Source of the DNA: an uncultured Ignatzschineria sp.
GTDB lineage: Bacteria > Pseudomonadota > Gammaproteobacteria > Cardiobacteriales > Wohlfahrtiimonadaceae
Assembly: GCA_945639195.1 (NCBI GenBank)
Contig: CALZEE010000007.1
Location: 87,210 to 151,209 of the forward strand
DNA: 64,000 bases
Direction: 5' to 3'
Below, piece by piece: positions 21,554 through 40,229 of this stretch. The notes below the pieces were generated by a model. It saw nothing but the letters and a program-made list of their open reading frames with translations, did not search any database and was not told the DNA's origin. The stretch's first letter is position 1. Every line of letters begins with the position of its first letter. The position numbers were made by a program, and so were the translations under genes.

Positions 21554-23797
<2,244 letters not shown>

Positions 23798-23873
23798 CTG
23801 TTTTACCTCTATTGAGATATCCTCTTCTTTCTAAGGATTGTTGAGAGTAAAATCTAATAGATCATGTTAGATA

Positions 23874-23913
23874 AACACGAATAATGACTTCCATCGTTAT
23901 TCGTGTTTTTTTT
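23874..23913 (+). terminator. Rho-independent terminator of icd
   Basis: 10-bp stem ACACGAATAA/TTATTCGTGT followed by TTTTTTTT. Confidence 0.75.
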
Positions 23914-23921
23914 GTGTAAAA

Positions 23922-23940
23922 AATCATAATGATGATTAAT
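23922..23940. promoter_or_regulatory. Candidate Fur box upstream of the TonB-dependent receptor. A second weaker candidate lies at 24066-24086.
   Basis: AATCATAATGATGATTAAT resembles GATAATGATAATCATTATC. The downstream genes are heme-related. Confidence 0.4.
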
Positions 23941-24186
23941 TTTTAGGAAGTATTGAATTTATGGCACAACTAATAGATCTTTTTATAGTGTTATTTTTTT
24001 AGTTTTTGGAAATGAATCAATAGGATGAGAATTCCTGTGATGAGTTTAAGGTTATTTAAATGAAAGTAATAATTAAATGATATTAGTTCTTATTTGAAAG
24101 GGGGGATGATAGCGCGTAGAATCTCTGTCCTCGATGGAAAATATTTGTTATTTTTTGATCTTAAATGACCACAGGAAAGGAATCTC

Positions 24187-26508: not shown

Positions 26509-26543
26509 GGGATCAATAAGTATAAAGTTTGCGGCGTGAAGAG

Positions 26544-26572
26544 AGCTACAAGAGGATTCTTGTAGCTTTTTA
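26544..26572 (+). terminator. Rho-independent terminator after the receptor gene
   Basis: AGCTACAAG-AGGATT-CTTGTAGCT followed by TTTTT. Confidence 0.65.
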
Positions 26573-26702
26573 TATTTCGTATTGAAGCTTATAGAGCAAG
26601 AACGAATGATGTATTAATTCTGTTTTAAGAAGTTCTTGGGCTGAATAGTCAATAAAATATTGCGCATATTGCCTTTTTTATAAGTACTTAAAAGTAATGT
26701 AA

Positions 26703-26734
26703 ACGATTATCATTTGTATTTCTTTTATCATTGG
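26703..26734. promoter_or_regulatory. Candidate tandem Fur boxes upstream of hemO
   Basis: GATTATCATTTG and TTTTATCATTGG. The reverse complement AATGATAATCG matches the Fur consensus core. Confidence 0.45.
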
Positions 26735-26792
26735 AATACAATTCACAAATGTTTAACTTTCCATGACTGATATAGAAGATAGGAATCACGCT

Positions 26793-27386
26793 ATGCAACC
26801 CAATAATAGAGATCTTAATTTGTTAACCCATCGTTTAAAATTTGAAACAAATGATACGCATGACACCGTTGATAACTTAGTGATGTCAGTAAACCCATTC
26901 GCGAATGTGGGGAATTATGGTAAATTCTTGCAGTTGCAGGAGATTTTTCATAAAATTGTCGATGATATCTATGCGCGTGAAGATTTAAATGCAGCGATTC
27001 CAGGATTAGCAGAAACGGCGCGTCATGCAGCGGTTTTAGCAGACATGGCGGATTTGAATGTCGAGAAGTTTGAAATCGATGCATTGCCGGCATTAAAGCC
27101 AGAAGAAGCGATCGGTTGGCTCTATTGTGCTGAGGGTTCCAATTTGGGCGCAGCATTCTTATATAAAGAAGTGAACAAGATTGATTTAGATAATAATCGT
27201 GGGGCGCGTCATTTGGCTGCACACTCAGATGGAAGAGGAAAGCATTGGCGTGCATTCTCTGAAAAACTTAATGCCATGGAGCTCGATGAGGCGGTAAGAC
27301 AAGCGGCAGTAAACGGTACCAAAGAAGCATTTAACTATTACAAGAAACTCTTACGTACGATTTTCGAATTACCAGAAGCAGCTTAA
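26793..27386 (+). CDS. hemO: Heme oxygenase of the HemO/PigA type
   Basis: Strong match to Neisseria HemO: HDTVDNLVMS, NYGKFLQLQEIFHK, IGWLYCAEGSNLGAAFLYK, GARHLAAHSDGRGKHWRAF. RBS AGGAAT precedes the ATG at 26793. The listed ORF start at 26763 lacks an RBS. Confidence 0.85.
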   Translation: MQPNNRDLNLLTHRLKFETNDTHDTVDNLVMSVNPFANVGNYGKFLQLQEIFHKIVDDIYAREDLNAAIPGLAETARHAAVLADMADLNVEKFEIDALPALKPEEAIGWLYCAEGSNLGAAFLYKEVNKIDLDNNRGARHLAAHSDGRGKHWRAFSEKLNAMELDEAVRQAAVNGTKEAFNYYKKLLRTIFELPEAA

Positions 27387-27390
27387 TTTA

Positions 27391-27792
27391 ATGACAACAA
27401 TTACTCGTCTATTTTTCATGATTGCCGGTGCAATATCCCTCTTTTTGGGGATATTAGGGATCTTCTTGCCACTATTGCCGACAACACCTTTTGTACTTTT
27501 GACAGCACTTTGCTGGGCAAAGAGTTCACCACGTTTTCATGCATGGCTTTTAGCGCATAAATTCTTTGGACCGATTGTTAATAACTGGGAGAAGGGGCGA
27601 GTAATTCCATTTAAAATGAAATTGCTTTCCACCGTAATGATGAATGGGGCAATCTTCACCACTGTCTTCACGCTTCCTGCGGATAAATGGTGGTTGAAAA
27701 TTATTATGGCGTGTATCAGTATTGGTACGACAATTTGGATCTGGTCATTCCCGCATACAATGCCGGAAGAGCATCTTGAAACAGCTGAGTAG
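27391..27792 (+). CDS. ybaN: DUF454 inner-membrane protein YbaN
   Basis: 133 aa with 3-4 TM segments. LGILGIFLPLLPTTPFVLLTALCWAKSS is typical of YbaN. Confidence 0.7.
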   Translation: MTTITRLFFMIAGAISLFLGILGIFLPLLPTTPFVLLTALCWAKSSPRFHAWLLAHKFFGPIVNNWEKGRVIPFKMKLLSTVMMNGAIFTTVFTLPADKWWLKIIMACISIGTTIWIWSFPHTMPEEHLETAE

Positions 27793-27851: not shown

Positions 27852-28799
27852 TTATTGAGAGACTGTGGGTGACGCTTTTACCGAAAGCTGTGACTTAATC
27901 TCGCTAGGCGATATAAGAATGGCCTCTAATGCATCGATCGTTTTCGATTCAAGCATGATCGATGCGTTAAGATCAAAGATATTTTTAAAGCTATTTTCTT
28001 CATTACTGAGGGTGATTTCTGAGAGCATTAAGGTCTGTTGCTCTCTCTTAGGTGCCTTTGTAGGTAAGTGCTGTGTGACGCCACTATTAATAATTTTAAG
28101 ACGATTTTTGCGGTAGCTTAAGGTTTCTGTAAGCCTCAATTGCTGGCGCCAAAGCGGGATAATCTCGTGGATAATGAGATTGATCTCCGTGAGATAACGA
28201 GAGATAGATGCGATAGATTGCTGTAGCTGGAGATCATGTAGCATTAGGGCATGCAGATTTGTTTTTAAGAGCACCGCGTAAGATTGGGCAGATTGTTGAG
28301 TCATTTTTGCCGGGCATGAGAGATCCTCTTTGACGGCTGATGACTGATGATTTAGAAGGCGATTTATTTGAAATTTTAGTTGGATGATTTTTTCTGATAA
28401 TGCGCTTAATTCTGATATTTTTTGTGCAATCTGCACACTTTGTGCATTTAAGAGATTATTGAGACGCTCAATTTTCTCCAAAATCTTTAAGTGACGCTGA
28501 TGTAAAGAAGTGATTGGACTAAAATAAATTCCAATAATGGGTAATTGATAGAGCCATCTTTTTAGAGGGCTATAAGGATTGGGCAGACTTTTAAGATCAC
28601 TTAAGGCCGCTTTAATCTCAACAGAGAGATCAAAGGGTCTAAAGGTATTTACAATACGTAAAGAGTCGCTCATTAAGCTCCCAGTAGCCTGTAATAAGAT
28701 TTGGGCTTCTTCTTGAATGTGAGTTTGTGCCAACTGTGGGGAGATTTCTGCCCGAGTACAGCTGTCATTTGCTTGAAGCGATTCTTTTGTATTTTTCAT
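27852..28799 (-). CDS. Gln/Leu-rich coiled-coil protein, 315 aa, unknown function. Co-operonic partner of the giant ATPase.
   Basis: RBS AGGAAT 8 nt upstream. Starts 45 bp after the stop of the 1644-aa gene. Long heptad-like segments such as LNAQSVQIAQKISELSALSEKIIQLKFQINRLL. No TM segment. Confidence 0.5.
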   Translation of the reverse strand: MKNTKESLQANDSCTRAEISPQLAQTHIQEEAQILLQATGSLMSDSLRIVNTFRPFDLSVEIKAALSDLKSLPNPYSPLKRWLYQLPIIGIYFSPITSLHQRHLKILEKIERLNNLLNAQSVQIAQKISELSALSEKIIQLKFQINRLLNHQSSAVKEDLSCPAKMTQQSAQSYAVLLKTNLHALMLHDLQLQQSIASISRYLTEINLIIHEIIPLWRQQLRLTETLSYRKNRLKIINSGVTQHLPTKAPKREQQTLMLSEITLSNEENSFKNIFDLNASIMLESKTIDALEAILISPSEIKSQLSVKASPTVSQ

Positions 28800-28844
28800 A
28801 AAAGATCATTCCTATGTTTTACTTTCGTGATGCCTATAAATATT

Positions 28845-31800
28845 TTATTCCTTTGATTTATTAGATGTTTGGGAAAGAGAAAACTGCTGCCCAATATTGG
28901 TAATCGCTTGGCCAATATCGCTAAGACCGCTTCGCATGCCGATAAGTTGGCTGGCAATTTGCATCTGCGGATCATCTTCACTGCCGAGTTCAGCATTGCG
29001 AGAGAAGCGTTTTTTAATCTCATTCCAGCGGATCTTATCTTCCTCAGTAAGCGTATTTCTGAGTTCTTTTAGTTTTAAGAGATTTTCTTCAGCGCCAGTC
29101 GTCAGCGTTTGAGCTTCTCCAATATAGTGATCATCAATTAAGACTTGTAGCTCAGATTCTGTCATCGCAGAGACCACTTTTTCTGTGAGTTTATTCATAT
29201 CTCGATAAGAACCTTGTAGTAAAAACGGCGGCTCTGTACGGTAATGATCGGCGGTTGCTGCCGAAATAATATATTGCTGATTCACTAGCAGTAAGATCTC
29301 TTGTACTTTTAGAAGATGTTTTAAAATGCCGGCAATTTCATTAATCTCTAAGGTAGAGTAGGGATATTCCAGATCATTGGCATTAATTTTGTGACCTTTG
29401 GCTTCCTCAACTAAAAGATAGAGATCCTCAAGATTCCGAGTGGCAAGCGGTGCTAAAATCGTGTTAGAGGTTAATGCATTTTCAATATAAGAGAGCTCAA
29501 ATGCCGCTCTTTGATCTGATAGCATATCGCCAAGGTTGTAAATATCTGCACGGTTCGCCAGCATATCCGGCACTTTGAAGGATTCGCCCGATTCTGTATA
29601 AGGGTTCCCAGCCATGATAATGGAGAATTTTTTGCCGCGCATGTCATAGGTTTTAGGAACTCCATTCCAAACGCCATCAATACGTCTTGTACCGTCCGAG
29701 AGTGAGATGAATTTTTGTAAAAACTCCGGATTGGTATGCTGGATGTCATCTAGATAGAGCATCACATTACTACCCATTTCAAGCCCAAAGTTGAGTTTTT
29801 CAATCTCTTTTGCAGCGGTCGCATTTGGCGCATCAGCAGGATCTAAAGAGGTTACTGTATGCCCAAGAGAAGGGCAGTTAATCTTCACAAACACAAGGCC
29901 CATTTTACTGGCGATATATTCAACGAGTGTTGTTTTACCATAACCAGGCGGGGAGATTAAGAGCAGCAATCCCATTAAGTCTGTTCGTTTTTGATCTCCG
30001 AGAGTTCCCATCTGCTTGGCAAAGTTTGCCCCAAAAAGTTGTAGATAAGAGTCTGTGATAAGTTTATTGCGAACAAAAGAGGTTAAGGGGCGTGCTTTGA
30101 GCTCATCGATATTAATCTTCTCTTTCATCGATTCGATCAATTGGTTTCTAGCCTGAAGATATTGCGTATAGTTGGGATAAACAACGGTTTCATGAAGCAG
30201 TCCTCTGAGTAAGAAATCATCCAATGTTCCTGTAAGAGTGCCGGCATTCAGCGTTTCGTGTTGTCCTAATAAACCTGTAACATGATATTTTAGTGAGAAT
30301 TGGCTCTGTTGGAATTGATACGCTTTAAGGCCATTTAGCGTCATAATTCCTGCGCTCTCTTCGATAAATTCTAAAGGCATATCACGATGCTTACAGTAAG
30401 CGGTGAGCCAAGTAATATGTCTTTGATAGCGATCAACAGGGGATAAAGTTTCTTCCTTAAATCCAAGAGACTCCCTAAAAATTTGATACTCACGCGCGAG
30501 TTCATTGGCTTCTCGAGAAACTAAGATCGGAGATTTCAGCCCTAAGATTGCCGTGATATATTCCGTCATTTGTGCGACTAATGCCGGCGATAAATGGGCA
30601 TTCCAAGCAAAAATACGCGCTTCCCAGCCCGCTCTTTCATGTGTTAGCGCATCATTTTCACCAAACTCTTGGTAGAGAAGGCGCGCATCAACGGCATTAT
30701 CGCTAAGAGGCAAGAGAGTATCCTCATCAATTTCAAAGAGCATGATTAAAGCGAGCATTCGTGCGTTTTGACTGAGTCTGAGTAAGCCGGCATCTTCGTA
30801 GATAGGTAATATTTGATCAAGAAGCTTGCTCGTATCATGATCATGAACCCCTCGAAGATACCCTTCACGATATTTCGTAGCGCTATATTTGGTGACTAAA
30901 TCATGTAGGGATTTCTCTTTTTGCGAGGCTAATAGACGGCTCAGAGTAAGTTTACCGGTTACCTCATCAGGCGTTTCTTGTTTTAAGGCGCTACTGATGA
31001 TTGAGTAGGCTAAAAATTCACTGCGGTAAAGATCCGGACTTTCAGAAGGAATCTCTAATGAAGCGTACTCTTCAAGCGCTAAGAAATCCGAATCTTGAAC
31101 GGTCTCATAAAACTCTGTTCCTGTAATATGGAACGCTGTTTTATTATGGTGCTCTGAGAGTGTGAGATCAAAAGCTTGCTGATTAACAGAGAATCTATGG
31201 CGACCAAGCTTAATGACTGCGCCATTTTCTTCAAAGATATCCTGATTATCACGAAGAGAGCGAAGTGATTGATCTTGTAGGCTTTTAAGTTTTGCCTCTA
31301 TGCCATCTGCTCTGACACTATCTTTCAGGGTGCGGATATTTTTAGCAAGTTCTCGCACCTTCATGACCATCGGATCGCTAATAAAATAGCTATTTAAAGC
31401 ATCGATTGATTCGAAACGTTGGACGCGGTTTTCGATACTTTTTAATGAAATATCGGCAGCTTTGGAGATATTATCAATCCGGCGTTGATACTGGCTAAGC
31501 TGATCTTTTTTATAGTTTTCGAAGACGGTGACAATTTCATTACGTTTTGCGTAAATCTCACTTAAGAATTGATCAAATTCTGCAAAGCGGCTCTCTAGTT
31601 TTTCCACCATCCCCATAATTCTTGCCTGTTGAAGGTCTGCATCTTCCGGCGTTTGAATCTGCGAGAGTGCAGTTTCCATTGATTGGGTGAGGAGTTTAAA
31701 CTGTGAGGAGAATTCCGCCTCAGCTTCTACGGAGCGAATGGATTTCTGCTGGTTACTTAATGTGGCTAACAGCGCATTTAAGCGAGAGATAACATTGGTC

Positions 31801-33779
31801 GTCAGGTCAATAATACGGGTTGTTTTTGTAGGATCATCTGTCTCAATGGTGGAAACCTCCTCATTGACCAACATTAAATCATCACGAATCATGGCCGCTT
31901 CTTCTTCAAGCTTTGCCAAATCAACGCTACGCTCACTGTTTTCTAGTGCCTGATAGATCGCATCAATACGCGTCATAAATGGGGTAAAAGCCGCCTCATC
32001 TTGAAGGAGATCGACAAGATGTTGATTTAGAATGGCTTGCTCTTTTGTCAGGGCATTTTCAAATTCTTTTAATGCTTCTTGATCAATATAACGCTCTTGG
32101 CGAAGGCTCATTAATGCGCCCATAAGACGTTTTAGCTCAGAAAGTAGCGTGATAAAATCCGCTGCATTATCGCTAGTGGTGGTTTTGATCTTTGTAATCA
32201 ATGCATATTGTTTTTCTTCAAAAGCTTTAAGTCTTTCCTCACTCGTAGCTTTGAGAGATTGATACTTTGCAAACTCATCAATGATATCGCCGGCAGTGGT
32301 AACAATTTCAGTAATTTTGGTTTTAATGCCGGATGCATTGGCATCATTGATCCAATAGTAGAGATCTGTAGTGCGGGTACAATAGTTGATCAATGCTTCA
32401 AAGAGGCTCTTTGTTGATTCTTGTGAGTGCGTATATTGAACAATGGTATTAAGGTCTGAGATCCCGCGGACAAGATCGGCATTTCCATTATTCCGATAAA
32501 ATTGGGGAATATCCGATGTTGATTGCTGTTCATATTGCTCTTTTGAGAGATAAGGCGTTTGCCAAATGCGCATAGGATGGACGCGAGAGGATTCCTGATT
32601 ATCACTATGACGGAACATAATGAGCTTACCATCATCAAAGCGGGAGAACCCATGATTATAGATTGGGGTCGCCACATCTTTCTCTATAAGGCTGTATGAG
32701 TAGAGAAGGTAGGCACCTTCATTGCGATCATAAAAGACATACAGAACATCTTCGCCATTAGGAGAGTGAACAATATGGCTAAAGTGAAGATCATCTTGGT
32801 GTTCATTAAAGAGACGTGTCTCTCCACTTGCAAGCGCATATCCATTGGAGAAGATTAAACCATGATCTTCAGGTAAAAGCTTACAAGCATGGCCCAGTGC
32901 ATCCAGACGAATCACCTGTTCTGTCAGGCGATTGAAGAGGAGATAACGGAACGCTTTTTCTCGATGTGGTCGAATTTTTAAGAGAATAAACTCTGAAATT
33001 TGCGCATAGCTAATGTCCGCATCTGAGAGTAACTGGTGTTGATCCATAACGGCTTCACTATAGATGCCGAGTCCCGTTTCTGTATTATTTTCAATCTTTA
33101 CAGTAAGATCACCCCCGACAGTTTCTACAAAGAGCGTATCAAGAATGTTGATATGGGGATGAATACCGGCAATATGATCCGAGCGCGAAGTTTCTATCCA
33201 AGAGATATCCGATTGCGATTCATTATAGATATCATGATGACCTTGATCATCGAGGTAGCGAACGGTTTGATGCGCGCCAATTTCAAAGCGAAATACTTTA
33301 AGATCGGTAATAAACTGTCCAATTTGGAAAGCGATATAGATTCGATGAGCATCACTTTTGACTTTAACGAGCTTCGCTTCTTTATAGTAAGTAAAGAGCT
33401 CTGTGAAGGATTGCTTAAAACGTGGATCTTGAAGGAATGATTCTTCAGAAGAGATCGCTTCAATGCTATATTCGCCCGCTTTTTCTTGCATCTTATAGAG
33501 CAGCAGCATATCGCTTATCTCGGGCGTTTGTTTGAGCCCTAAGGTGACGTCATAACCCATGAGGATAAGATCATTCACTTTGGCGATATCGATAGGCGTA
33601 CAGCGATTTTCAGTATGAACATTGACCTTGGCAATCACCTCGTTTTGGCTCTTACCAAAAATCTGTGTGCGTTGCTCATTAAAATTGCCGACTAAAGTCG
33701 CGAGCTCAGTTCCTTGTTGGCTGAGTCTATTTTTTAAAACATCGTAGTTACCACTGCTGTTTTTTTCAATTGTTTCCAT
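28845..33779 (-). CDS. Giant 1644-aa protein. A MoxR/AAA_5-type P-loop ATPase module sits around residues 1265-1400. The N-terminal roughly 1250 aa, which include a long coiled-coil/helical stretch, are uncharacterised.
   Basis: Walker A LLLISPPGYGKTTLVEYIA at nt 29925-29970. Walker B NVMLYLDDIQHTNPEF at about nt 29740-29770. Sensor region IIMAGNPYTESGESFKVPDMLANRADIY. Single uninterrupted ORF with a plausible RBS. Confidence 0.7.
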   Translation of the reverse strand: METIEKNSSGNYDVLKNRLSQQGTELATLVGNFNEQRTQIFGKSQNEVIAKVNVHTENRCTPIDIAKVNDLILMGYDVTLGLKQTPEISDMLLLYKMQEKAGEYSIEAISSEESFLQDPRFKQSFTELFTYYKEAKLVKVKSDAHRIYIAFQIGQFITDLKVFRFEIGAHQTVRYLDDQGHHDIYNESQSDISWIETSRSDHIAGIHPHINILDTLFVETVGGDLTVKIENNTETGLGIYSEAVMDQHQLLSDADISYAQISEFILLKIRPHREKAFRYLLFNRLTEQVIRLDALGHACKLLPEDHGLIFSNGYALASGETRLFNEHQDDLHFSHIVHSPNGEDVLYVFYDRNEGAYLLYSYSLIEKDVATPIYNHGFSRFDDGKLIMFRHSDNQESSRVHPMRIWQTPYLSKEQYEQQSTSDIPQFYRNNGNADLVRGISDLNTIVQYTHSQESTKSLFEALINYCTRTTDLYYWINDANASGIKTKITEIVTTAGDIIDEFAKYQSLKATSEERLKAFEEKQYALITKIKTTTSDNAADFITLLSELKRLMGALMSLRQERYIDQEALKEFENALTKEQAILNQHLVDLLQDEAAFTPFMTRIDAIYQALENSERSVDLAKLEEEAAMIRDDLMLVNEEVSTIETDDPTKTTRIIDLTTNVISRLNALLATLSNQQKSIRSVEAEAEFSSQFKLLTQSMETALSQIQTPEDADLQQARIMGMVEKLESRFAEFDQFLSEIYAKRNEIVTVFENYKKDQLSQYQRRIDNISKAADISLKSIENRVQRFESIDALNSYFISDPMVMKVRELAKNIRTLKDSVRADGIEAKLKSLQDQSLRSLRDNQDIFEENGAVIKLGRHRFSVNQQAFDLTLSEHHNKTAFHITGTEFYETVQDSDFLALEEYASLEIPSESPDLYRSEFLAYSIISSALKQETPDEVTGKLTLSRLLASQKEKSLHDLVTKYSATKYREGYLRGVHDHDTSKLLDQILPIYEDAGLLRLSQNARMLALIMLFEIDEDTLLPLSDNAVDARLLYQEFGENDALTHERAGWEARIFAWNAHLSPALVAQMTEYITAILGLKSPILVSREANELAREYQIFRESLGFKEETLSPVDRYQRHITWLTAYCKHRDMPLEFIEESAGIMTLNGLKAYQFQQSQFSLKYHVTGLLGQHETLNAGTLTGTLDDFLLRGLLHETVVYPNYTQYLQARNQLIESMKEKINIDELKARPLTSFVRNKLITDSYLQLFGANFAKQMGTLGDQKRTDLMGLLLLISPPGYGKTTLVEYIASKMGLVFVKINCPSLGHTVTSLDPADAPNATAAKEIEKLNFGLEMGSNVMLYLDDIQHTNPEFLQKFISLSDGTRRIDGVWNGVPKTYDMRGKKFSIIMAGNPYTESGESFKVPDMLANRADIYNLGDMLSDQRAAFELSYIENALTSNTILAPLATRNLEDLYLLVEEAKGHKINANDLEYPYSTLEINEIAGILKHLLKVQEILLLVNQQYIISAATADHYRTEPPFLLQGSYRDMNKLTEKVVSAMTESELQVLIDDHYIGEAQTLTTGAEENLLKLKELRNTLTEEDKIRWNEIKKRFSRNAELGSEDDPQMQIASQLIGMRSGLSDIGQAITNIGQQFSLSQTSNKSKE

Positions 33780-34183
33780 ATTGTTCTACTCTTTATATCT
33801 ATCAAGGGGCAGGGTGATGGAGAGACTGATAGTGAATCTCATGGCTAAATGATCATCGACAGAGGGATTGAATCAGTCTTTAAAGCCGCCCACTAAAGTG
33901 TTTGTATGTATAAGATGACAAGAATTGATTAACGATCAGCACGCGGCTGTTTGGCGCAGTGCGATTAAAGATCATCAAAGCACTCAGACGAGAGGGATTT
34001 TGATGAATAGCAAAAAGAGTGATGATGGTTAATAAATCATTGTTAGATAATGGTTGAAAATAATGGTTAAAAAGTAGCTAAATGATAGATGAAGAATATT
34101 TAAGTATTTTGTTATGTATGACGCTATTTCTAATGAAAGATCTAGTGCATCACCTAATACAATACCTAATACCTAAGGCAAGA

Positions 34184-34218
34184 CCGATAGCGACTTTATC
34201 AATACAGGTCGCTATCGG
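34184..34218 (-). other. Perfect 11-bp-stem hairpin about 70 nt downstream of the flotillin stop. It lacks a U-tract.
   Basis: CCGATAGCGAC-13 nt-GTCGCTATCGG. On the minus strand the following bases are GTCTTGCCTTAGG. Confidence 0.5.
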
Positions 34219-34289
34219 CTGCTAATAGATGATTAATGATTAAAATTACTCATCAAAAATTACTCATTAAAAATTAATTGTGAAAAATA

Positions 34290-36281
34290 TTACTTTTTCT
34301 GTAAGAACAAGGCGCGAATCGCTTCGATTTGTTCTGGGCTATCAGCCAGTTTTTTCATTAAATTTGCACTTGAAAGGTTCGTTAAATCTTCAGATTTAAT
34401 GCCTCCTTCCATTAAGACATCTTTAATGTCATCGATCACGCTTCTATCGCCCGCAACATACTCTTTTACTAATGGATTAAGCACTTCACTATTGCCATAT
34501 TTCGCGTCAACAGTTGCTGCGCCCATGACTGCTTCACGGATCTCTCGCATGCCTTCGCCACCAAAGAGTTTGATATCTGCATTTGCAAGTGCATTCGCTA
34601 AGACGCGGCCATTTTCGATATTAACGGCTTTGTTTGCTTCAATACTAGAGAGTCGTAACTCTTTATCCATATTGAGCTGCATTACCCATTTATCATGCTC
34701 ACGTGCCGTATCATCATATTTTTGAGCAGCTTCAAAGCGCGCTGACTGAGCTTCTGCTTCTGCATGCCCTTTTTGACGAATAACATCGCTTTCTGCCTTT
34801 TCAACTTCGATACGAGCAAGTCCTTCTTTTTGAATTTCCATCTCGATCGCAGCGGCCATACGCTCTTTCGCAATAGCACGATTCTCTTCAGAGATGAGAT
34901 GTGCTTTTGCCTGATTCTCCTCATAGATATAGAGCGCTTCTGCTTCTTTTGTTTTCACTAAGAGCTGATTCTCGGCAATACGGGCATCTTTTTTCGTTTG
35001 CGCATCGACTTCTAGTAAGAGGCGTTCGCTCTCTTCTTTCATCGCTTCTTTTTCTGCACGAGCAAGGGCTAATTTATGGACGACTTCCGCTTCAGCTAAT
35101 GCTTCGGCTTCCGTCAAGGTCACCTTTTTGTGACGGTTTGCCGCTTCAAAGGCTCTAAGATTTTTAGTCTCTTCCTCTTCACGCGCGATTTTACGCTCGA
35201 TCTCAGTGATTTGTGCACGCTTTTCAACGACTTGTTTGCGAGCTTCTTCGATCAATGCATCTTTCTCCATCTCCTGAGAAGAGACTTCGCGTTCCGTTTT
35301 AACACGTTCTGTGCCTTTTGCACGGTTAACTTCTTCCTGAGAGATAACAGTTTGACGCTCTGTACCAATGCGAGTAAGTTCAATTTCCATCTCCATCAGT
35401 TTTTCACGTTTACCAATCTCTTCTTCTGCTGAAAGGCGCGCAAGTTCTTCACGCTGAATATTTTCTTGGTTTTTCTCTTCAGTAAGTGCGCGTTCTTGCA
35501 GTCTGATAACTTCAATCTCACGCTTGGTACGCGCTTCAACTTCTTGCTCTTGTTTTTCCAATTGGAGGCGATTGGAGTTTGCTTCCACATTTTTCTGCTT
35601 GATATTCGTCATCTCATCTTGACGAATGGCATTGGTCTCAATGTTCTTGGTCGAGGTGATCTCCGCAATCTTACGAATCCCTTCAACGTCTAATATATTT
35701 TGAGGGTTATGAGCATCAAATGCCGTTTGATCAATACGGTCGATGACAACGTCATAGATCTTAAAGCCATCCATCTCTTCGCCGATCACTTCAATCACTT
35801 TTTCTCGGAATTCGAGGCGATTAGTGAGAAGTTCTTCAAAATCGAATTGCTTTACAGCTGTTTTAAGCGCTTCAGAAAACTTCGGTTGGAAGTGCTCAGA
35901 AAGTTGTGCTGGGTCAGAGGCGCCGCGAGTTGTGAAAAGTTTTGCGACACGGATAATATCGGCTTCAATGTGATTCACGCCAATATAGAAATCTACTTTG
36001 AGGTCAGCACGAATGTTATCTTTACAGTGCAAGCCTTCGTACTCATCTCCTTGTGCATCTTTACGTCCACTGCGGCTTACGGAGATTTTTTTACGGGTGA
36101 TATCCATAAATTCATAACGATTGACTACCGGCCAGATAAAAGTCCCCGTCAGTGACGCGCGTGTTTTTGAAATACCGTTAACAATGAGTGCTTCACCTTC
36201 GCGACGAATCTTTTTATAGCGAGTGGTTAAGAACATCAAAATGATGATTAGGCCAGCTGCGCCTAAGTAGAGAAAGTTCAT
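34290..36281 (-). CDS. yqiK: SPFH/band-7 flotillin-family protein (YqiK/FloT-like) with a long Glu/Ala/Lys-rich coiled-coil tail
   Basis: 663 aa. N-terminal TM segment, SPFH-like core, then EA-rich coiled coil. A 4-bp ATGA overlap with the upstream NfeD-like gene. Confidence 0.85.
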   Translation of the reverse strand: MNFLYLGAAGLIIILMFLTTRYKKIRREGEALIVNGISKTRASLTGTFIWPVVNRYEFMDITRKKISVSRSGRKDAQGDEYEGLHCKDNIRADLKVDFYIGVNHIEADIIRVAKLFTTRGASDPAQLSEHFQPKFSEALKTAVKQFDFEELLTNRLEFREKVIEVIGEEMDGFKIYDVVIDRIDQTAFDAHNPQNILDVEGIRKIAEITSTKNIETNAIRQDEMTNIKQKNVEANSNRLQLEKQEQEVEARTKREIEVIRLQERALTEEKNQENIQREELARLSAEEEIGKREKLMEMEIELTRIGTERQTVISQEEVNRAKGTERVKTEREVSSQEMEKDALIEEARKQVVEKRAQITEIERKIAREEEETKNLRAFEAANRHKKVTLTEAEALAEAEVVHKLALARAEKEAMKEESERLLLEVDAQTKKDARIAENQLLVKTKEAEALYIYEENQAKAHLISEENRAIAKERMAAAIEMEIQKEGLARIEVEKAESDVIRQKGHAEAEAQSARFEAAQKYDDTAREHDKWVMQLNMDKELRLSSIEANKAVNIENGRVLANALANADIKLFGGEGMREIREAVMGAATVDAKYGNSEVLNPLVKEYVAGDRSVIDDIKDVLMEGGIKSEDLTNLSSANLMKKLADSPEQIEAIRALFLQKK

Positions 36282-37069
36282 AGAAAGAAGCTCCTATATA
36301 AGTGAAAGTAATGAATGACAATAGCCAAAAGAAATCTTTTAGAGGAGTAGAAAGATAAGGATCTTTCAGGGTGATTAAAATAGGTTCTGATAGGTATCAG
36401 CCCATGTTTTTTTGTCGTTGAATCTGCGCTATTGTCTGAATCGACTTTAATAACGAGAAAGCGTTTTTTGGTTTCATTAAATGAGACGATTAAAGCTAAA
36501 TCCCCATAAGTGAGAGGGGAAGACGAAAGATTTTCATCACAATAGACATTGAGATAATCTTCTCGCCCACTGTGATCTTTAATTGATATCTCTCCAAAAT
36601 TTGCTGTCACTTTTGTCGTTTTAATAGCGCCTGTCATGCCAATATAATTGACTGTGGCAAATGCTTTTTTCTGATCTAGGAAGGAAGAAAAAGGTTTGAG
36701 TGCCCAACTTGCAAGATGAAGTGAGATAAAAAAAATCACAAAAAGAGCTATAACTGCGGCAATCCAATAAAAAATGCCGGGGAGCATAATTAGAAAATCT
36801 TGGATAAGATAAGAGATCACTGTCGCAATAAAAAAGACAATGGAGAGGGAGACTAAAAGAGGTAATTGAGCAAGTCGCTGAGGGAAGAAGATATCTAATA
36901 TAGAAAGAGAGCTTGCTTCTGTCTCTACGTCAATATCAAATTCAAACGGTAATTCTAAGTTTCCCAAAAATCCTGTCACTAAAGAGATCAGCATCAATAT
37001 TAATAGGACGCAATATGCCCAGAAAAAAAATAGCGTAGGGAATATGGATGTTAAGTCCGAAAAAGCCAC
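36278..37069 (-). CDS. yqiJ: NfeD/YqiJ-like membrane protein. N-terminal TM helices, an acidic loop and a C-terminal OB-fold-like beta domain. Partner of the flotillin.
   Basis: GTG start at 37067-37069 with a perfect AGGAGG 5 nt upstream. Hydrophobic N-terminal half, FEFDIDVETEAS acidic stretch, C-terminal GMTGAIKTTKVTANFGEISIKDHSG...LALIVSFNE. Confidence 0.7.
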   Translation of the reverse strand: MAFSDLTSIFPTLFFFWAYCVLLILMLISLVTGFLGNLELPFEFDIDVETEASSLSILDIFFPQRLAQLPLLVSLSIVFFIATVISYLIQDFLIMLPGIFYWIAAVIALFVIFFISLHLASWALKPFSSFLDQKKAFATVNYIGMTGAIKTTKVTANFGEISIKDHSGREDYLNVYCDENLSSSPLTYGDLALIVSFNETKKRFLVIKVDSDNSADSTTKKHGLIPIRTYFNHPERSLSFYSSKRFLLAIVIHYFHLYRSFFL

Positions 37070-37351
37070 AATAGCCTCCTGCAAAATTTCTTATTGGTGA
37101 GGGGAAGCATTTGGAGAGAGTGATTCCTCTCACCAATAAGGAAAATTAAACCGAATAATTATATTAGGGAGTATTTTGTCAGGATCAGTAAATAGGGGCT
37201 TTACAACAAGAGTGATCAATCATTGCTTAATATAGGTCATTTTTGAGACCCTAATTTAAAATAGAAAAGGCTATTAAAAATAGACAGACATAAAAAATCC
37301 CGATGCTTAAAGCGATCGGGATTTGTATGATTTATAAAAGACGTTTACTGA

Positions 37352-39937
37352 TTAGTTCGCAACGATATTCACAAGGCGATTAGGCACGACAATGACGCGT
37401 CGAATCGTTCCTTCGATGAATTTTACTGCATTTTCATTTGCAAGCGCTTCTTTTTCAATCTCTTCTTTAGAGGCAGATGCCGGAACAATGATCTCCCCAC
37501 GAAGGCGACCATTTACCTGAACCATATACTTCACTTCATCCGCTACAAGTGCTGATTCTGAAGGTTGTGGTAATGCATGACCTAAGATATCGTCACCAAA
37601 GAGTGATTCCCAAATAGTATGCACAATATGCGGCACGATAGGGCTTAATAGGCGAAGCATAATTGAGAAGCCTTCTTGCTTCACAGCAGCATCATCTTTA
37701 GAATCTTTGAGTTTTCCTAAGATGTTAAGAATGATCATATTTGCAGAGATGACGGTATTGAAGTGGAAACGCTCATAGTCATAAAGCGCTTTTTTCAATT
37801 CTTGGTGGATCTCGCGACGAGCATCTTTTGCGGCTTTATCTGTAATCGCGTCCGCATTGAGCGTTGTATCTTTCAGTAATGCTTGGTTCTCATAAGCAAA
37901 GTTCCAGATACGACGTAAGAAGCGATCTGCACCTTCAAGGCCTGCATCAGACCATTCGAGTGATTGCTCTGGTGGAGAAGTGAACATCATGAAGAGGCGT
38001 GAAACGTCTGCCCCAAATTCTTTGATAATCGCTTCTGGGTCCACACCGTTATTCTTCGATTTACCCATTTTTTGGATACCGTAGTAATTAACCGGTTCGC
38101 CATCTGCTTTTAAGAAGTATTCTTTCTTACCATCTACTTCACGCGAATCAACATCTTTCACGTTGAACCACTCATAGCCTTTTGAGCCATGGCGGAAGAA
38201 TGAAGGCGCAACCACCATTCCTTGTGTTAAGAGTGCTTTGAAAGGTTCAGGACCTACTTTTTCAGTATCTCCGAGTAAGCCTTCATTGCGCATCAATTTA
38301 TGGAAGAAGCGTGAATAGAGAAGGTGCAGAATTGCGTGTTCAACGCCGCCAATATATTGGTCTACAGGAAGCCATGCAGTTGCAGCAGCCGGATCAATCA
38401 TTCCTTTGTCGTAGTTATTACATGCAAAGCGCGCGTAGTACCAAGATGATTCTACGAAAGTATCCATGGTATCAGTTTCGCGTTCAGCCGCGCCGCCACA
38501 ACTTGGGCAAGCCACATTCTTGAACGAGTCAAGTTTGTTAAGCGGGTTACCAGAGCCATCAGGGATACAATCTGTTGGTAAAACAACCGGAAGATCTTTC
38601 TCAGGAACCGGTACTTCACCACAGCTTGGGCAGTTGATGATGGGGATTGGGCAACCCCAATAACGTTGGCGAGAGATTCCCCAGTCACGAAGGCGATATT
38701 GTGTTTTTGCCTGACCACGTGATTTTTCACTGAGTGCCGCACCGATTTTTTCGAATGCTTCATCAAAGTTAAGACCTGTGAATTCACCTGAGTTAATGAG
38801 CGTGCCATGTTCAGCAAGTGAATCGTGCCAAGCATCCGTTGAGATATTCCCATCTGCAGGTTCAATCACAACTTTAATTGGGAGGTTGTATTTTTTAGCA
38901 AAGCCAAAGTCACGAACATCATGCGCCGGAACGGCCATTACAGCACCGTCGCCATATGCCATTAAGACATAGTTAGCAACCCAGATCGCAACTTTTTCGC
39001 CTGTTAATGGGTGCGTTGCAAATTCGCCTGTAGGCATTCCTTTCGCTTCTTGCGTCGCAAAGTCTGCTTCACTTGTGCCTGTTTTTTGGCACTCTTTAAT
39101 AAATTCTGCAAGCTCAGGATTATTGATCGCCGCTTTTGCTGCAATCGGATGCTCAGGGGCAACCGCAACATAAGTAACGCCCATTAAAGTATCAGGACGT
39201 GTTGTGAAGACATTAAATTGACCTTCATCGTGAAGGAAAGTCACTTCCATCCCTTGTGATTTACCAATCCAGTTCGCTTGCATCGTGCGAACTTGCTCTG
39301 GCCACTCTTCAAGAAGATCAAGATCATCTAAGAGCTCATCTGCATAATCTGTGATTTTGAAGTAGTACATCGGAATTTCACGACGCTCAACAAGTGCGTC
39401 AGAACGCCAACCGCGGCCATCAATGACTTGCTCGTTGGCAAGCACAGTTTGGTCAACAGGATCCCAGTTAACGATCCCTTTTTTGCGGTAAATAACGCCT
39501 TTTTTATAGAGTTGAAGGAAGAACCATTGCTCCCAACCATAATATTCAGGATCGCATGTTGAGAATTCACGTGACCAGTCGAACCCGAAACCGAGCTCTT
39601 TAAATTGTCTTTTCATATAGACAATATTTTTATTGGTCCATGAATGTGGTGATACTTTGTTATCGATTGCCGCATTTTCTGCCGGCATTCCGAAAGCATC
39701 CCAACCGATTGGTTGCATCACGTTGTAACCGCTCATTTTTTTGTAGCGTGTGATCACATCGCCGATGGTGTAGTTACGAACGTGACCCATATGGAGTCGG
39801 CCCGATGGATAAGGGAACATCGAGAGGCAGTAGTAATTGGGCTTATCCGTGTTATCTGCCACTGTAAAGGAGGCATTCTTTTCCCAAAATGCTTGCGCAG
39901 AGGCCTCTATAGAGACCGCTTCGTAGGTTGGTTTCAT
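37352..39937 (-). CDS. leuS: Leucyl-tRNA synthetase
   Basis: [13 protein letters not shown] (HIGH) and KMGKSKNN (KMSKS). Start set at MKPTYEAV with RBS AAGGA. The listed ORF is 23 codons longer without support. Confidence 0.95.
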
Positions 39938-40229
39938 CCTATAAAATCCTTGTTTGATAGAAGAGATACAACAAATGCGATTGATGCAGGCATTATCAAA
40001 GGTCATTGCGAAGAGAAGGGGCTTTAAGTACCTCAGATAATTCTCCGCAAACTTGATATTTATGACTGCATCAACATATTAATTTTTAACCCCGCTATTA
40101 TACACTAACTTTAAAGGCAATTGTCCTAATGGATCGGGAACTTTATAACAAATGTTCATCTGTTCTTGTGGAATCTTGGTATAATAACCGACTTGCTTTA
40201 TGTCACGGAAATGTAGGAATATTCATATT

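What the first reader, a model, noticed from the sequence alone, without database searches (positions are those of the whole stretch)
27852..33779. Giant 1644-aa AAA_5/MoxR-type ATPase with a coiled-coil partner: candidate undescribed system
- **Operon:** a single 4.9-kb ORF encodes a 1644-aa protein, followed 45 bp later by a 315-aa Q/L-rich coiled-coil protein on the same strand.
- **ATPase module:** the only recognisable module in the large protein is a compact P-loop ATPase of the dynein-related AAA_5/MoxR kind. Its motifs are GPPGYGKT, hhhhDD and an NP...R sensor block, at nt 29740-29970, about 1270 residues from the N-terminus. The roughly 1250 residues before it include a long helical/coiled-coil stretch and match no family I can name.
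- **Context:** the pair sits directly downstream of an NfeD/YqiJ plus SPFH/flotillin (YqiK) membrane-scaffold pair, wedged between housekeeping blocks hemO-ybaN and leuS.
- **Why it stands out:** MoxR-class ATPases normally work with a VWA/MIDAS partner and are about 300 aa long. A 1.6-kDa-class single polypeptide with a non-VWA coiled-coil partner does not match CbbQ/NorQ/RavA/McrB/GvpN arrangements. It also does not match catalogued defence ATPases as far as I can recall (BrxC, Avs, RdrA, DruE). Plausible roles are a membrane-microdomain-associated remodelling, stress or phage-defence machine.
Basis: partly seen in the sequence, partly recalled or inferred. Interest (0 to 1): 0.8.

Follow-up and report, generated by a model that had tools for sequence, protein, structure and literature searches.

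The report
Flotillin-linked giant AAA+ ATPase with TelA
The 1644-residue protein is an intact member of a very widespread, database-catalogued but experimentally unstudied family of giant ATPases that always sit next to a flotillin membrane-scaffold gene, so it is a good example of a known kind of envelope-stress gene cluster, not an undescribed system.

Summary
Both ORFs are real and intact: 28845-33779(-), 1644 aa, and 27852-28799(-), 315 aa, 45 nt apart. The "undescribed system" reading does not hold.

- **Family.** The large protein matches Pfam DUF3686 (E 3.5e-163), DUF7902 and AAA_5. It has more than 4,300 full-length homologues across many phyla, which NCBI names "DNA repair ATPase" (I found no evidence for that name).
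- **True partners.** In 73 of 73 related loci with enough upstream DNA, a long flotillin gene lies directly upstream on the same strand. A 3-TM YqiJ/NfeD-like gene precedes it in 71.
- **Prior description.** This operon, with or without PspA and a CesT-like DUF2170 gene, was described in silico by Ravi et al. [quoted passage not shown]
- **Downstream protein.** The 315-aa protein is a fast-evolving, divergent TelA-family protein, a lineage-variable accessory.
- **Function.** The most likely role is ATP-driven remodelling of flotillin (and possibly PspA/TelA) membrane scaffolds. This is inferred, not shown.

Verdict: new member of a known but uncharacterised kind; moderate interest.

The parts
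36278..37084 (-). YqiJ/NfeD-like membrane protein: three predicted TM segments plus a C-terminal soluble beta-rich domain. The likely true start is GTG at 37069, 5 nt after an AGGAGG. The stop overlaps the flotillin ATG (ATGA).
   Evidence: ORF. Hydropathy gives TM segments in res ~11-132. Homologous ~227-aa ORFs lie in the same position in 71/73 loci. Start context. No Pfam or NCBIfam hit, so the YqiJ identity rests on architecture, position and Ravi et al..
34290..36281 (-). Long YqiK-type flotillin: N-terminal TM anchor, SPFH/Band_7 domain, E/A/K-rich coiled coil and a C-terminal region (663 aa).
   Evidence: Pfam Band_7 E 2.6e-10, 41 bits, above cut-off. TM at res 1-22. Lies directly upstream of the ATPase on the same strand in 73/73 loci with at least 3 kb upstream. 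89% identical to the copy in L084.
33780..34289 (-). 510-nt spacer between the flotillin and ATPase genes. It holds an 11-bp-stem hairpin (34184-34218) just after the flotillin stop. This may be a partial terminator or attenuator followed by an internal promoter.
   Evidence: Sequence. Not conserved in sequence with relatives, but L081 also has a hairpin after its flotillin gene. Function is inferred only.
28845..33779 (-). Giant soluble ATPase, 1644 aa, 187 kDa, of the DUF3686-DUF7902-AAA_5 family ("DNA repair ATPase" in NCBI naming).
   Evidence: No TM segment. More than 4,343 homologues. 80 genome loci across Pseudomonadota, Myxococcota, Actinomycetota, Planctomycetota, a Clostridia MAG and Eremiobacterota.
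32559..33641 (-). Seven-bladed beta-propeller (res ~47-407), preceded by an N-terminal helix (res 11-41). It lies within Pfam DUF3686 (res 25-475, nt 32355-33707).
   Evidence: AF2 model of res 1-1200, mean pLDDT 84.6, with about 28 strands in seven groups of four. Foldseek PDB hits are WD40 and other propellers: Sec12 4h5i, PALB2 2w18, Elp1, Ski8, prolyl oligopeptidase, clathrin terminal domain, a nucleoporin.
31245..32543 (-). Long-helix / coiled-coil stalk (res ~413-845), including Pfam DUF7902 (res 597-679, nt 31743-31991).
   Evidence: DSSP of the model shows helices of 20-58 residues. DUF7902 E 3e-14.
30330..31217 (-). Small beta unit (res 855-893) plus an all-alpha middle domain (res 897-1150) of unknown type. 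It carries the invariant motif EGYxxG[IV]HDxD (H979, D980, D982; nt 30834-30851).
   Evidence: Model. Invariant columns. Motif. No Pfam or PDB sequence match.
29400..30080 (-). MoxR/AAA_5-like AAA+ module (res ~1234-1460).
- Walker A: PPGYGKTT, nt 29928-29951.
- Walker B: MLYLDD, nt 29745-29762.
- Pre-sensor-1 beta-hairpin: res 1366-1379, nt 29643-29684.
- Sensor-1: AGNPYTE, nt 29592-29612.
- Arg-finger candidate: LANRAD, nt 29544-29561.
28848..29399 (-). C-terminal helical extension (res 1461-1644) with conserved YRTEPPFxLQGSYRxMNK and DHYxGEAQTL motifs. The distal tail is low-confidence in the model.
   Evidence: Many homologues carry longer tails here.
27852..28799 (-). Divergent TelA-family protein (315 aa, pI 9.2, no TM). 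It is a fast-evolving, lineage-variable accessory gene of the module.
   Evidence: - Pfam does not call it.
- Only 3 relatives in 1.84 billion representatives.
- All relatives sit directly downstream of the ATPase gene.
- A 4-sequence profile hits a bona fide Vibrio TelA (Pfam 1e-75) at E 6.7e-14.
- hhalign against a TelA alignment gives E 9.5e-5 over 268 collinear columns, but probability is only 59%.
- In the next lineage (L087/L088) the gene in this exact position is Pfam TelA, and BLASTP to it gives E 6e-7.
- It is 30% identical between the window and L084, where the ATPase is 77% identical.
37085..37322 (-). Upstream control region of the module. It contains the leuS intrinsic terminator (37291-37322), a promoter-like site (37155-37182), and a perfect 12-bp inverted repeat CTTATTGGTGAG/CTCACCAATAAG (37129-37140 and 37090-37101) next to the RBS.
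   Evidence: Sequence. Promoter scan, where the number of sites is not above the shuffled expectation. Function is inferred only.

Best explanation
**What it is (shown).** The region is a four-gene cassette: yqiJ/nfeD-like, long flotillin, giant ATPase, telA-like. It is the "abbreviated" form of the PspA/CesT-YqiJ-flotillin-AAA+ envelope-stress operon.

The giant protein is an intact, soluble member of the DUF3686-DUF7902-AAA_5 family. Its domains, in order, are:
- an N-terminal helix;
- a seven-bladed beta-propeller;
- a helical stalk of about 430 residues;
- an unknown helical domain with an invariant HDxD motif;
- a MoxR-like AAA+ module with invariant Walker A, Walker B, sensor and Arg residues;
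- a helical tail.

The 315-aa protein is a rapidly diverging TelA-family protein.

**How it most likely works (inferred).**
1. The flotillin, anchored by its N-terminal TM helix and paired with the NfeD-like protein, builds an oligomeric SPFH scaffold on the cytoplasmic face of the inner membrane.
2. The ATPase forms a ring through its AAA+ modules.
3. It uses its propeller and coiled-coil arms to dock on that scaffold.
4. ATP hydrolysis then assembles, disassembles or remodels the scaffold, or the helical polymers and clients associated with it (PspA where encoded, TelA here), during envelope stress.

From general knowledge, this parallels FtsH inside the HflK/C cage, YME1L and PARL on SLP2, or Vps4 on ESCRT-III.

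TelA, PLD-family and rhomboid genes appear to be interchangeable downstream accessories.
For: **Family and integrity**
- Pfam matches: DUF3686 3.5e-163, DUF7902, AAA_5.
- More than 4,343 full-length homologues.
- About 40% identity across phyla, with the catalytic residues invariant.

**Obligate linkage**
- Flotillin lies directly upstream in 73/73 loci and the YqiJ-like gene in 71/73.
- The yqiJ-like stop and flotillin start overlap as ATGA.

**Envelope-stress theme**
- PspA (PF04012, 1e-50) and DUF2170 occur together in 26/71 loci.
- On pQBR103 the module follows the DUF2491-DUF350-DUF1190-glutathionylspermidine synthase operon.
- TelA, PLDc_2 and rhomboid genes lie downstream in subsets of loci.
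- Ravi et al. 2024 describe the same operon and propose a role in sub-membrane dynamics.
- In B. subtilis an SPFH protein is required to link PspA to the membrane (PMC8581546).
- Human flotillin forms a dome-shaped 44-mer (PMC13000311).

**Structure**
- Propeller, stalk and helical domain, pLDDT 84.6.
- MoxR-like AAA+ fold with a pre-sensor-1 hairpin.
- No TM segment in the ATPase or in the TelA-like protein.

**Not a mobile or defence element**
- No PADLOC hit.
- No phage record carries a homologue.
- Only 13 of 72,556 plasmid records do, mostly chromids or megaplasmids.
Against: - No experiment on any family member was found.
- Physical contact between the ATPase and flotillin, ring formation and the identity of the substrate are all inferred from gene order and from analogy.
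- MoxR-type ATPases usually act as maturation chaperones with VWA partners rather than as polymer disassemblases, and no VWA gene is present here.
- The 510-nt gap and hairpin suggest the ATPase/telA pair may be transcribed separately from yqiJ/flotillin in this genome.
- No pspA gene lies in the cassette here. I did not scan the rest of the window for one.
- The TelA assignment depends on Vibrio-type intermediates. Pfam and a Xanthomonad TelA profile do not detect the window protein (E 0.17).
Confidence: 0.6

Rival explanations
1. It is a client chaperone rather than a scaffold remodeller. Like other MoxR ATPases (CbbQ, NorQ, RavA), it matures, inserts or extracts specific membrane-protein clients, and flotillin merely provides the platform that concentrates them.
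For: The best structural matches are MoxR maturation chaperones and Pfam assigns AAA_5. From general knowledge, SPFH cages such as HflK/C enclose clients of an AAA+ machine. A rhomboid protease occurs in some operons, which fits client processing.
Against: There is no VWA/MIDAS adaptor and no candidate client gene conserved in the neighbourhood. The only universally linked genes are the scaffold genes themselves.
Confidence: 0.17
2. It is an anti-phage or other conflict system. The flotillin-ATPase core senses membrane perturbation by infection and triggers variable effectors: a PLD-family nuclease or lipase, a rhomboid protease, or TelA.
For: The downstream genes are variable and effector-like (PLDc_2, rhomboid, TelA, an unknown ~243-aa protein). 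The TelA-like gene evolves very fast, at 30% identity against 77% for the ATPase. The cassette sits in a different chromosomal context in each related lineage.
Against: No PADLOC model matches any of the four proteins. No homologue was found in phage records and almost none on plasmids. The core is extremely conserved, at about 40% identity across phyla and 89% for flotillin within the lineage, which is unlike typical defence genes. No mobility genes were seen at the flanks. GC content matches the surroundings. The recurrent link is to PspA and polyamine stress genes.
Confidence: 0.12
3. It is a DNA-repair ATPase, as the Pfam description and the NCBI product name say.
For: Only the database names support this: "ATPase involved in DNA repair" and "DNA repair ATPase".
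Against: No DNA-binding or nuclease domain was detected. No repair genes appear in the conserved neighbourhood. The universal linkage is to membrane-scaffold genes. No paper supports the name.
Confidence: 0.03
4. The 315-aa ORF is a decaying TelA remnant with no function in the module.
For: It is shorter than canonical TelA (315 aa against 354-385). Pfam no longer recognises it. It diverges very rapidly.
Against: The ORF is intact in at least five divergent lineages, always directly after the ATPase gene. It keeps 47 invariant columns, including the LPIIGxYFSP and PLWxxQL motifs. It has its own Shine-Dalgarno-like AGGAA upstream.
Confidence: 0.05

Closest known systems
PspA/CesT-YqiJ-flotillin-AAA+ operon and its "abbreviated" YqiJ-flotillin-AAA+ form (Ravi et al. 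2024, mSystems, PMC11237479)
   Same: [quoted passage not shown] An optional PLD (HKD) gene is seen in 13 related loci.
   Different: The window cassette lacks PspA, the CesT-like DUF2170 gene and PLD. It carries a divergent TelA-family gene instead. Neither TelA nor rhomboid linkage is mentioned in that paper or in its held supplement. The paper gives one paragraph and no experiments.
MoxR-class AAA+ ATPases (CbbQ, NorQ, RavA; Pfam AAA_5)
   Same: The ATPase core fold and motifs match: Walker A, an hhhhDD Walker B, a pre-sensor-1 hairpin, and NP...G...P..LANR resembling NP...G...LP.A..DRF.
   Different: It is 1644 aa rather than about 270-500 aa. A roughly 1230-residue propeller-stalk-helical N-terminal region precedes the ATPase. 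There is no VWA/MIDAS partner. Walker B reads DD rather than DE.
SPFH cage plus AAA+ machine pairs: HflK/C-FtsH, and SLP2-YME1L-PARL (general knowledge)
   Same: An SPFH-family scaffold is genetically coupled to an AAA+ ATPase. A rhomboid protease occurs in some related operons, echoing PARL.
   Different: The ATPase here is soluble, has no protease domain and belongs to a different AAA+ clade. Physical association is untested.
TelA / KlaA toxic-anion-resistance family (Pfam PF05816)
   Same: The window protein is collinear over about 260 residues and shares the LP(I/V)IG and P(L/S)W(K/R)xQ(F/L) motifs. It holds the same position after the ATPase gene as bona fide TelA genes in Vibrio, Xanthomonadales and the L087 lineage.
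   Different: It is below Pfam detection, 40-70 residues shorter, and only about 22-23% identical. It belongs to a small, fast-evolving clade with three database relatives.
Vps4 / ESCRT-III (PspA, Vipp1) remodelling
   Same: The concept is shared: an AAA+ ring acting on membrane-bound helical polymers. PspA is encoded in 26 of 71 related operons.
   Different: Vps4 belongs to the classical AAA clade and has a MIT domain. Here the clade and the N-terminal domains differ, and no pspA gene lies in this cassette.

Membership tests
DUF3686-DUF7902-AAA ("DNA repair ATPase") family | Full-length collinear homology, with a DUF3686 N-terminal domain, DUF7902 in the stalk and a C-terminal AAA module | tested here: met
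   Pfam DUF3686 E 3.5e-163 (profile 1-448/448), DUF7902 3e-14, AAA_5/AAA. 98-99% query coverage against more than 100 listed homologues with the same Pfam set.
YqiJ-flotillin-AAA+ envelope-stress operon (Ravi et al. 2024) | A flotillin (TM + band-7 + coiled coil) gene adjacent on the same strand | tested here: met
   Band_7 hit and an N-terminal TM. Same arrangement in 73/73 related loci.
YqiJ-flotillin-AAA+ envelope-stress operon (Ravi et al. 2024) | A 3-TM YqiJ/YuaF-type protein encoded next to the flotillin gene | tested here: inconclusive
   Three TM segments plus a C-terminal domain, and an ATGA overlap with the flotillin start. Homologues lie in 71/73 loci. No Pfam or NCBIfam NfeD/YqiJ hit, and no direct comparison with E. 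coli YqiJ was made.
YqiJ-flotillin-AAA+ envelope-stress operon (Ravi et al. 2024) | An AAA+ ATPase with N-terminal beta-propeller repeats and coiled coil | tested here: met
   AF2 model: all-beta res 47-407, long helices res 413-845. Foldseek hits are propellers.
YqiJ-flotillin-AAA+ envelope-stress operon (Ravi et al. 2024) | The CesT/Tir-like (DUF2170) and PspA dyad in the operon (full form only) | tested here: not met
   Absent between leuS and the cassette. Present in 26/71 related loci. The window therefore carries the "abbreviated" form.
MoxR / AAA_5 clade of AAA+ | AAA_5-type core: Walker A and B, sensor-1 Asn in an NP motif, an Arg finger, and a pre-sensor-1 beta-hairpin | tested here: met
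MoxR / AAA_5 clade of AAA+ | A helix-2 insert | tested here: inconclusive
   The segment between beta2 and alpha2 (model res 77-94) is modelled as a loop with a short helix. No clear hairpin is resolved.
MoxR / AAA_5 clade of AAA+ | A stand-alone ATPase of about 300 aa working with a VWA/MIDAS partner | tested here: not met
   The protein is 1644 aa. No VWA family appears among the recurrent neighbour clusters.
TelA (PF05816) | A sequence match to the family model | tested here: not met
   No Pfam TelA hit for the window protein or for P0122-P0124, even at E up to 10.
TelA (PF05816) | Homology to bona fide members, shown through intermediates and profiles | tested here: met
   - Partner-clade HMM against Vibrio TelA: E 6.7e-14.
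- BLASTP against two Pfam-positive TelA proteins: E 2e-7 and 6e-7, collinear.
- hhalign: E 9.5e-5 over 268 columns, probability 59%.
- Positional equivalence with TelA in L087/L088, Vibrio and Xanthomonadales.
Catalogued anti-phage defence systems (PADLOC-DB v2) | A match of any component to a defence-system protein model | tested here: not met
   No hit for the ATPase, the TelA-like protein, the flotillin or the YqiJ-like protein at E up to 0.01.

The most novel reading that the evidence does not exclude
This family could be the dedicated ATP-driven assembly/disassembly machine for bacterial flotillin (SPFH) domes. It would be a roughly 1.1-MDa hexamer whose propeller-plus-helical-stalk arms grip the scaffold. 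Foldseek finds this layout loosely reminiscent of clathrin and nucleoporin coat proteins. TelA, PspA, PLD and rhomboid would be swappable membrane-repair modules. That would give SPFH microdomains their first known specific remodelling ATPase and would assign a function to TelA.
Probability: 0.25. Interest if true: 0.75.

Novelty: new member of a known kind. Interest (0 to 1): 0.35.

Why it matters
The family is large, with thousands of members across many phyla, including Proteus, Providencia, Vibrio, Stenotrophomonas and Pseudomonas. It is strikingly conserved and invariably tied to flotillin, yet it carries a misleading "DNA repair" name and has no experimental data.

Bacterial flotillin function and dynamics are still poorly understood. 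An obligate ATPase partner would be a direct handle on that question.

Two points here may go beyond the published description, though only modestly. First, TelA, rhomboid and PLD genes alternate at the downstream position. Second, a fast-evolving cryptic TelA clade exists. For this window specifically, the outcome is that the finding is a correctly spotted but already catalogued module.

Tried and rejected
- **PDB sequence searches.** I searched with the whole protein, the partner, and profiles of the N-terminal, middle and C-terminal regions. There was no informative hit. Only the Walker A stretch matched p97, NVL and RuvB.
- **Pfam and NCBIfam on the partner and its relatives.** Nothing was found.
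- **hhalign with a 3-sequence partner profile.** This was uninformative (probability 3.8%). It improved once more distant clade members were added.
- **First iterative HMM on the partner.** It became contaminated by alternative-frame ORF extensions in high-GC loci. I replaced it with cleaner tests.
- **Xanthomonad TelA profile.** It does not detect the window protein (E 0.17).
- **AFDB50 fold search.** The library was unavailable. I could not check taxonomic spread in eukaryotes or archaea, or annotated structural neighbours.
- **Anantharaman/Aravind 2012 Ter-system paper.** It could not be retrieved.
- **Literature searches.** DUF3686, PF12458, and "DNA repair ATPase" with SPFH returned no experimental work.
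- **Rfam scan of the window.** No hits.
- **Alignment of the flotillin-ATPase spacer with relatives.** No conserved element was found.
- **Promoter and terminator scan.** Promoter-like sites are not above the shuffled expectation; terminator-like sites are only modestly so, 13 against 8.2 ± 2.7.
- **Rejected readings.** A fusion artefact or pseudogene is ruled out by the full-length collinear homologues. A mobile-island origin has no support from GC content, phage or plasmid data.

Full report
**1. Observation**

The six-frame ORF list confirms both ORFs: 28845..33779(-), 1644 aa, and 27852..28799(-), 315 aa, separated by 45 nt. On the same strand upstream lie four features:
- a 663-aa ORF at 34290..36281;
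- a 268-aa ORF at 36278..37084, whose stop overlaps the next start (ATGA);
- leuS at 37352..40006, followed by an intrinsic terminator;
- on the other side, convergent heme oxygenase and DUF454/YbaN genes.

- Walker A is SPPGYGKT, res 1277-1284.
- Walker B is MLYLDD, res 1340-1345.

The protein is 187 kDa. GC content does not set the region apart from its flanks.

**2. Identity of the large protein**

The claim that the first 1250 residues match no family is wrong.
- Pfam gives DUF3686 ("ATPase involved in DNA repair") over res 25-475 at E 3.5e-163.
- It gives DUF7902 over res 597-679 at E 3e-14.
- It gives AAA_5 over res 1272-1397, above its gathering score.
- A search of 5.8 billion proteins returned more than 4,343 hits among the 8,000 candidates scored.
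- The best 120 all cover 96-100% of the query (most 98-99%), have the same Pfam set, and are mostly named "DNA repair ATPase". They include Ignatzschineria at 77%, Vibrio and Photobacterium at about 50%, and Proteus and Providencia at 44%.
- A genome scan gave 80 loci from Gamma- and Betaproteobacteria, Myxococcota, Actinomycetota, Planctomycetota, a Clostridia MAG and Eremiobacterota. Identity was about 40% over the full length.
- Walker A and B, the sensor-1 NP, the LANRAD arginine and many other positions are invariant.

The ORF is therefore an intact, constrained gene and not a fusion artefact. No solved structure is related at the sequence level.

**3. Anatomy**

An AlphaFold2 model of res 1-1200 was built from 64 aligned sequences and reached mean pLDDT 84.6. 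It shows:
- an N-terminal helix, res 11-41;
- an all-beta region, res 47-407, with seven groups of four strands;
- long helices, res 413-845;
- a small beta unit, res 855-893;
- an all-alpha domain, res 897-1150.

Foldseek against the PDB returns WD40 and other propellers: Sec12, PALB2, Elp1, Ski8 and prolyl oligopeptidase. It also returns propeller-plus-helix proteins such as the clathrin terminal domain and a nucleoporin.

The middle domain has no Pfam or PDB match. It carries an invariant EGYxxG[IV]HDxD motif.

**4. Neighbourhood**

I called ORFs in the 80 loci plus the window, clustered the neighbours, and annotated cluster representatives with Pfam.
- Flotillin lies directly upstream on the same strand in 73 of the 73 loci that have at least 3 kb upstream.
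- A homologue of the window's 3-TM protein precedes it in 71 of those 73.
- PspA/IM30 (E 1e-50) and DUF2170 occur together further upstream in 26 of 71 loci.

The downstream position is variable. Among 69 loci with at least 2 kb downstream, it holds:
- PLDc_2 in 13 loci;
- TelA in 11 loci;
- rhomboid in 8 loci;
- an unknown ~243-aa protein in 10 loci, always together with TelA.

No VWA family recurs. On megaplasmid pQBR103 the module follows the DUF2491-DUF350-DUF1190-glutathionylspermidine synthase operon. Homologues are absent from phage records and present in only 13 of 72,556 plasmid records, mostly chromids. No PADLOC model matches any of the four proteins.

**5. Literature**

Ravi et al. 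2024 (mSystems, PMC11237479) describe exactly this arrangement. Their operon combines CesT/Tir-PspA with three further genes:
[quoted passage not shown] - a 3-TM YqiJ/YuaF protein, sometimes with a PLD hydrolase.

They also note that abbreviated operons lacking PspA are widespread. The description is one paragraph of comparative genomics. I found no experimental work on the family. The window carries the abbreviated form.

**6. The 315-aa partner**

Pfam, NCBIfam and the PDB give nothing for this protein. It has only three relatives among 1.84 billion representative proteins, at 66%, 32% and 31% identity.

All relatives sit immediately downstream of a DUF3686 ATPase gene. So the pairing is conserved within this Ignatzschineria-related lineage. 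Divergence is extreme, however. Between the window and L084 the identities are:
- flotillin 89%;
- ATPase 77%;
- YqiJ-like 63%;
- partner 30%.

The protein is a divergent TelA, on five lines of evidence:
- phmmer against the neighbourhood ORFs hit only the Vibrio ostreicida gene two positions downstream of the ATPase gene (E 8.9e-6). That gene is Pfam TelA at 1e-75.
- A 4-sequence profile of the partner clade hits the same Vibrio gene at E 6.7e-14.
- hhalign against a TelA alignment gives E 9.5e-5 over 268 collinear columns, with probability 59%.
- In the next-closest lineage (ATPase 58% identical), the gene in exactly this position is a Pfam-recognised TelA.
- BLASTP of the window protein to that TelA gives E 6e-7 over 256 collinear residues.

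The LP(I/V)IG and P(L/S)WxxQ motifs are shared. The caveat is that a Xanthomonad TelA profile does not find the window protein (E 0.17). The link depends on Vibrio-type intermediates and on synteny.

**7. Mechanism**

*Shown:* the gene content, the domain architecture, conservation of the catalytic residues, and the invariant genomic coupling to flotillin and the YqiJ-like gene.

*Inferred:* that the ATPase forms an AAA+ ring, docks through its propeller and stalk on the flotillin/NfeD scaffold, and uses ATP to remodel that scaffold or its associated helical proteins (PspA, TelA) during envelope stress. Two published results lend support. SPFH and PspA cooperate in B. subtilis (PMC8581546). 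Flotillins have a dome architecture (PMC13000311). From general knowledge, HflK/C-FtsH and SLP2-YME1L-PARL are further parallels.

The rivals are:
- a MoxR-style client chaperone working on the flotillin platform;
- a conflict or defence system with variable effectors;
- the nominal DNA-repair role, which has no support;
- a non-functional TelA remnant, which is unlikely given the intact ORFs and conserved motifs.

**8. Local details**

- The 510-nt spacer between the flotillin and ATPase genes holds an 11-bp-stem hairpin at 34184-34218.
- A relative has a different hairpin in the same place, but the spacer sequence is not conserved.
- This could mean attenuated read-through or a separate promoter. 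It is untested.
- The cassette is flanked by different genes in each related lineage. It therefore behaves as a self-contained four-gene unit, although no mobility genes were seen.

**9. Verdict**

The system is a member of a catalogued, previously described and experimentally uncharacterised module, not an undescribed one. The real conserved partners are the upstream flotillin and YqiJ-like genes. The downstream protein is a cryptic TelA. The novelty rating is "new member of a known kind" and interest is moderate (0.35). What keeps it from being low is that the family is untouched experimentally, together with the possibly unreported TelA and rhomboid linkage.

Noticed in passing
window 37090-37140 (-): A perfect 12-bp inverted repeat, CTTATTGGTGAG ... 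CTCACCAATAAG, with a 27-nt spacer. It ends 6 nt before the first possible start of the yqiJ-like gene. It could be an operator palindrome or a 5'-UTR hairpin next to the RBS.
   Followed up: no
window 37067-37084 (-): The listed TTG start of the yqiJ-like ORF is probably wrong. An AGGAGG lies inside codons 2-3 and a GTG follows 5 nt later, at 37069, giving 263 aa. Homologues align from about residue 9. The window protein also has a C-terminal extension of about 50 aa relative to its 215-219-aa relatives, and this extension runs into the flotillin start.
   Followed up: partly
window 34184-34218 (-), within the 510-nt gap 33780-34289: An 11-bp-stem hairpin (CCGATAGCGAC / GTCGCTATCGG, 13-nt loop) sits just after the flotillin stop, with no clear T-run. 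Relative L081 has an unrelated hairpin at the same place. This may be an attenuator that sets the flotillin:ATPase ratio.
   Followed up: partly
window 30834-30851 (-), res 977-982 of the large protein: The motif EGYxxG[IV]HDxD (H979, D980, D982) is invariant across phyla. It sits in an all-alpha middle domain that matches no Pfam family or PDB sequence. It could be a metal or ligand site.
   Followed up: partly
L048:15283-16041 (+) and the equivalent ORFs in 10 Xanthomonadales loci: An unannotated ORF of about 243-252 aa always sits between the ATPase gene and TelA, overlapping the ATPase stop codon. It has no Pfam hit.
   Followed up: partly
L085 (pQBR103, NC_009444.1 86455-103329): The Pseudomonas fluorescens SBW25 megaplasmid carries the yqiJ-like/SPFH/ATPase module directly after a DUF2491-DUF350-DUF1190-glutathionylspermidine synthase operon. 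An MvaT/MvaU gene follows on the opposite strand.
   Followed up: partly
L080:2137-3084 (-) and 11 other loci: An FHA-GGDEF diguanylate cyclase gene recurs within a few kb of the ATPase gene in 12 loci, on either strand.
   Followed up: no
L003, L014, L065, L080 and others: Many homologues are 100-400 residues longer than the window protein. Much of the extra length is in low-conservation C-terminal tails after the AAA+ module.
   Followed up: no
window 21584-27792 (+): This stretch holds a monomeric isocitrate dehydrogenase, a TonB-dependent receptor (Plug + barrel), a heme oxygenase and DUF454/YbaN. The last three look like a heme-uptake unit converging on the TelA-like gene. Only 59 nt separate the two stop codons, and no obvious terminator hairpin lies between them.
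   Followed up: partly
window 37291-37322 (-): A canonical intrinsic terminator (ATCCCGAT ... ATCGGGAT followed by TTTTTT) lies directly after leuS. It separates leuS from the cassette.
   Followed up: no
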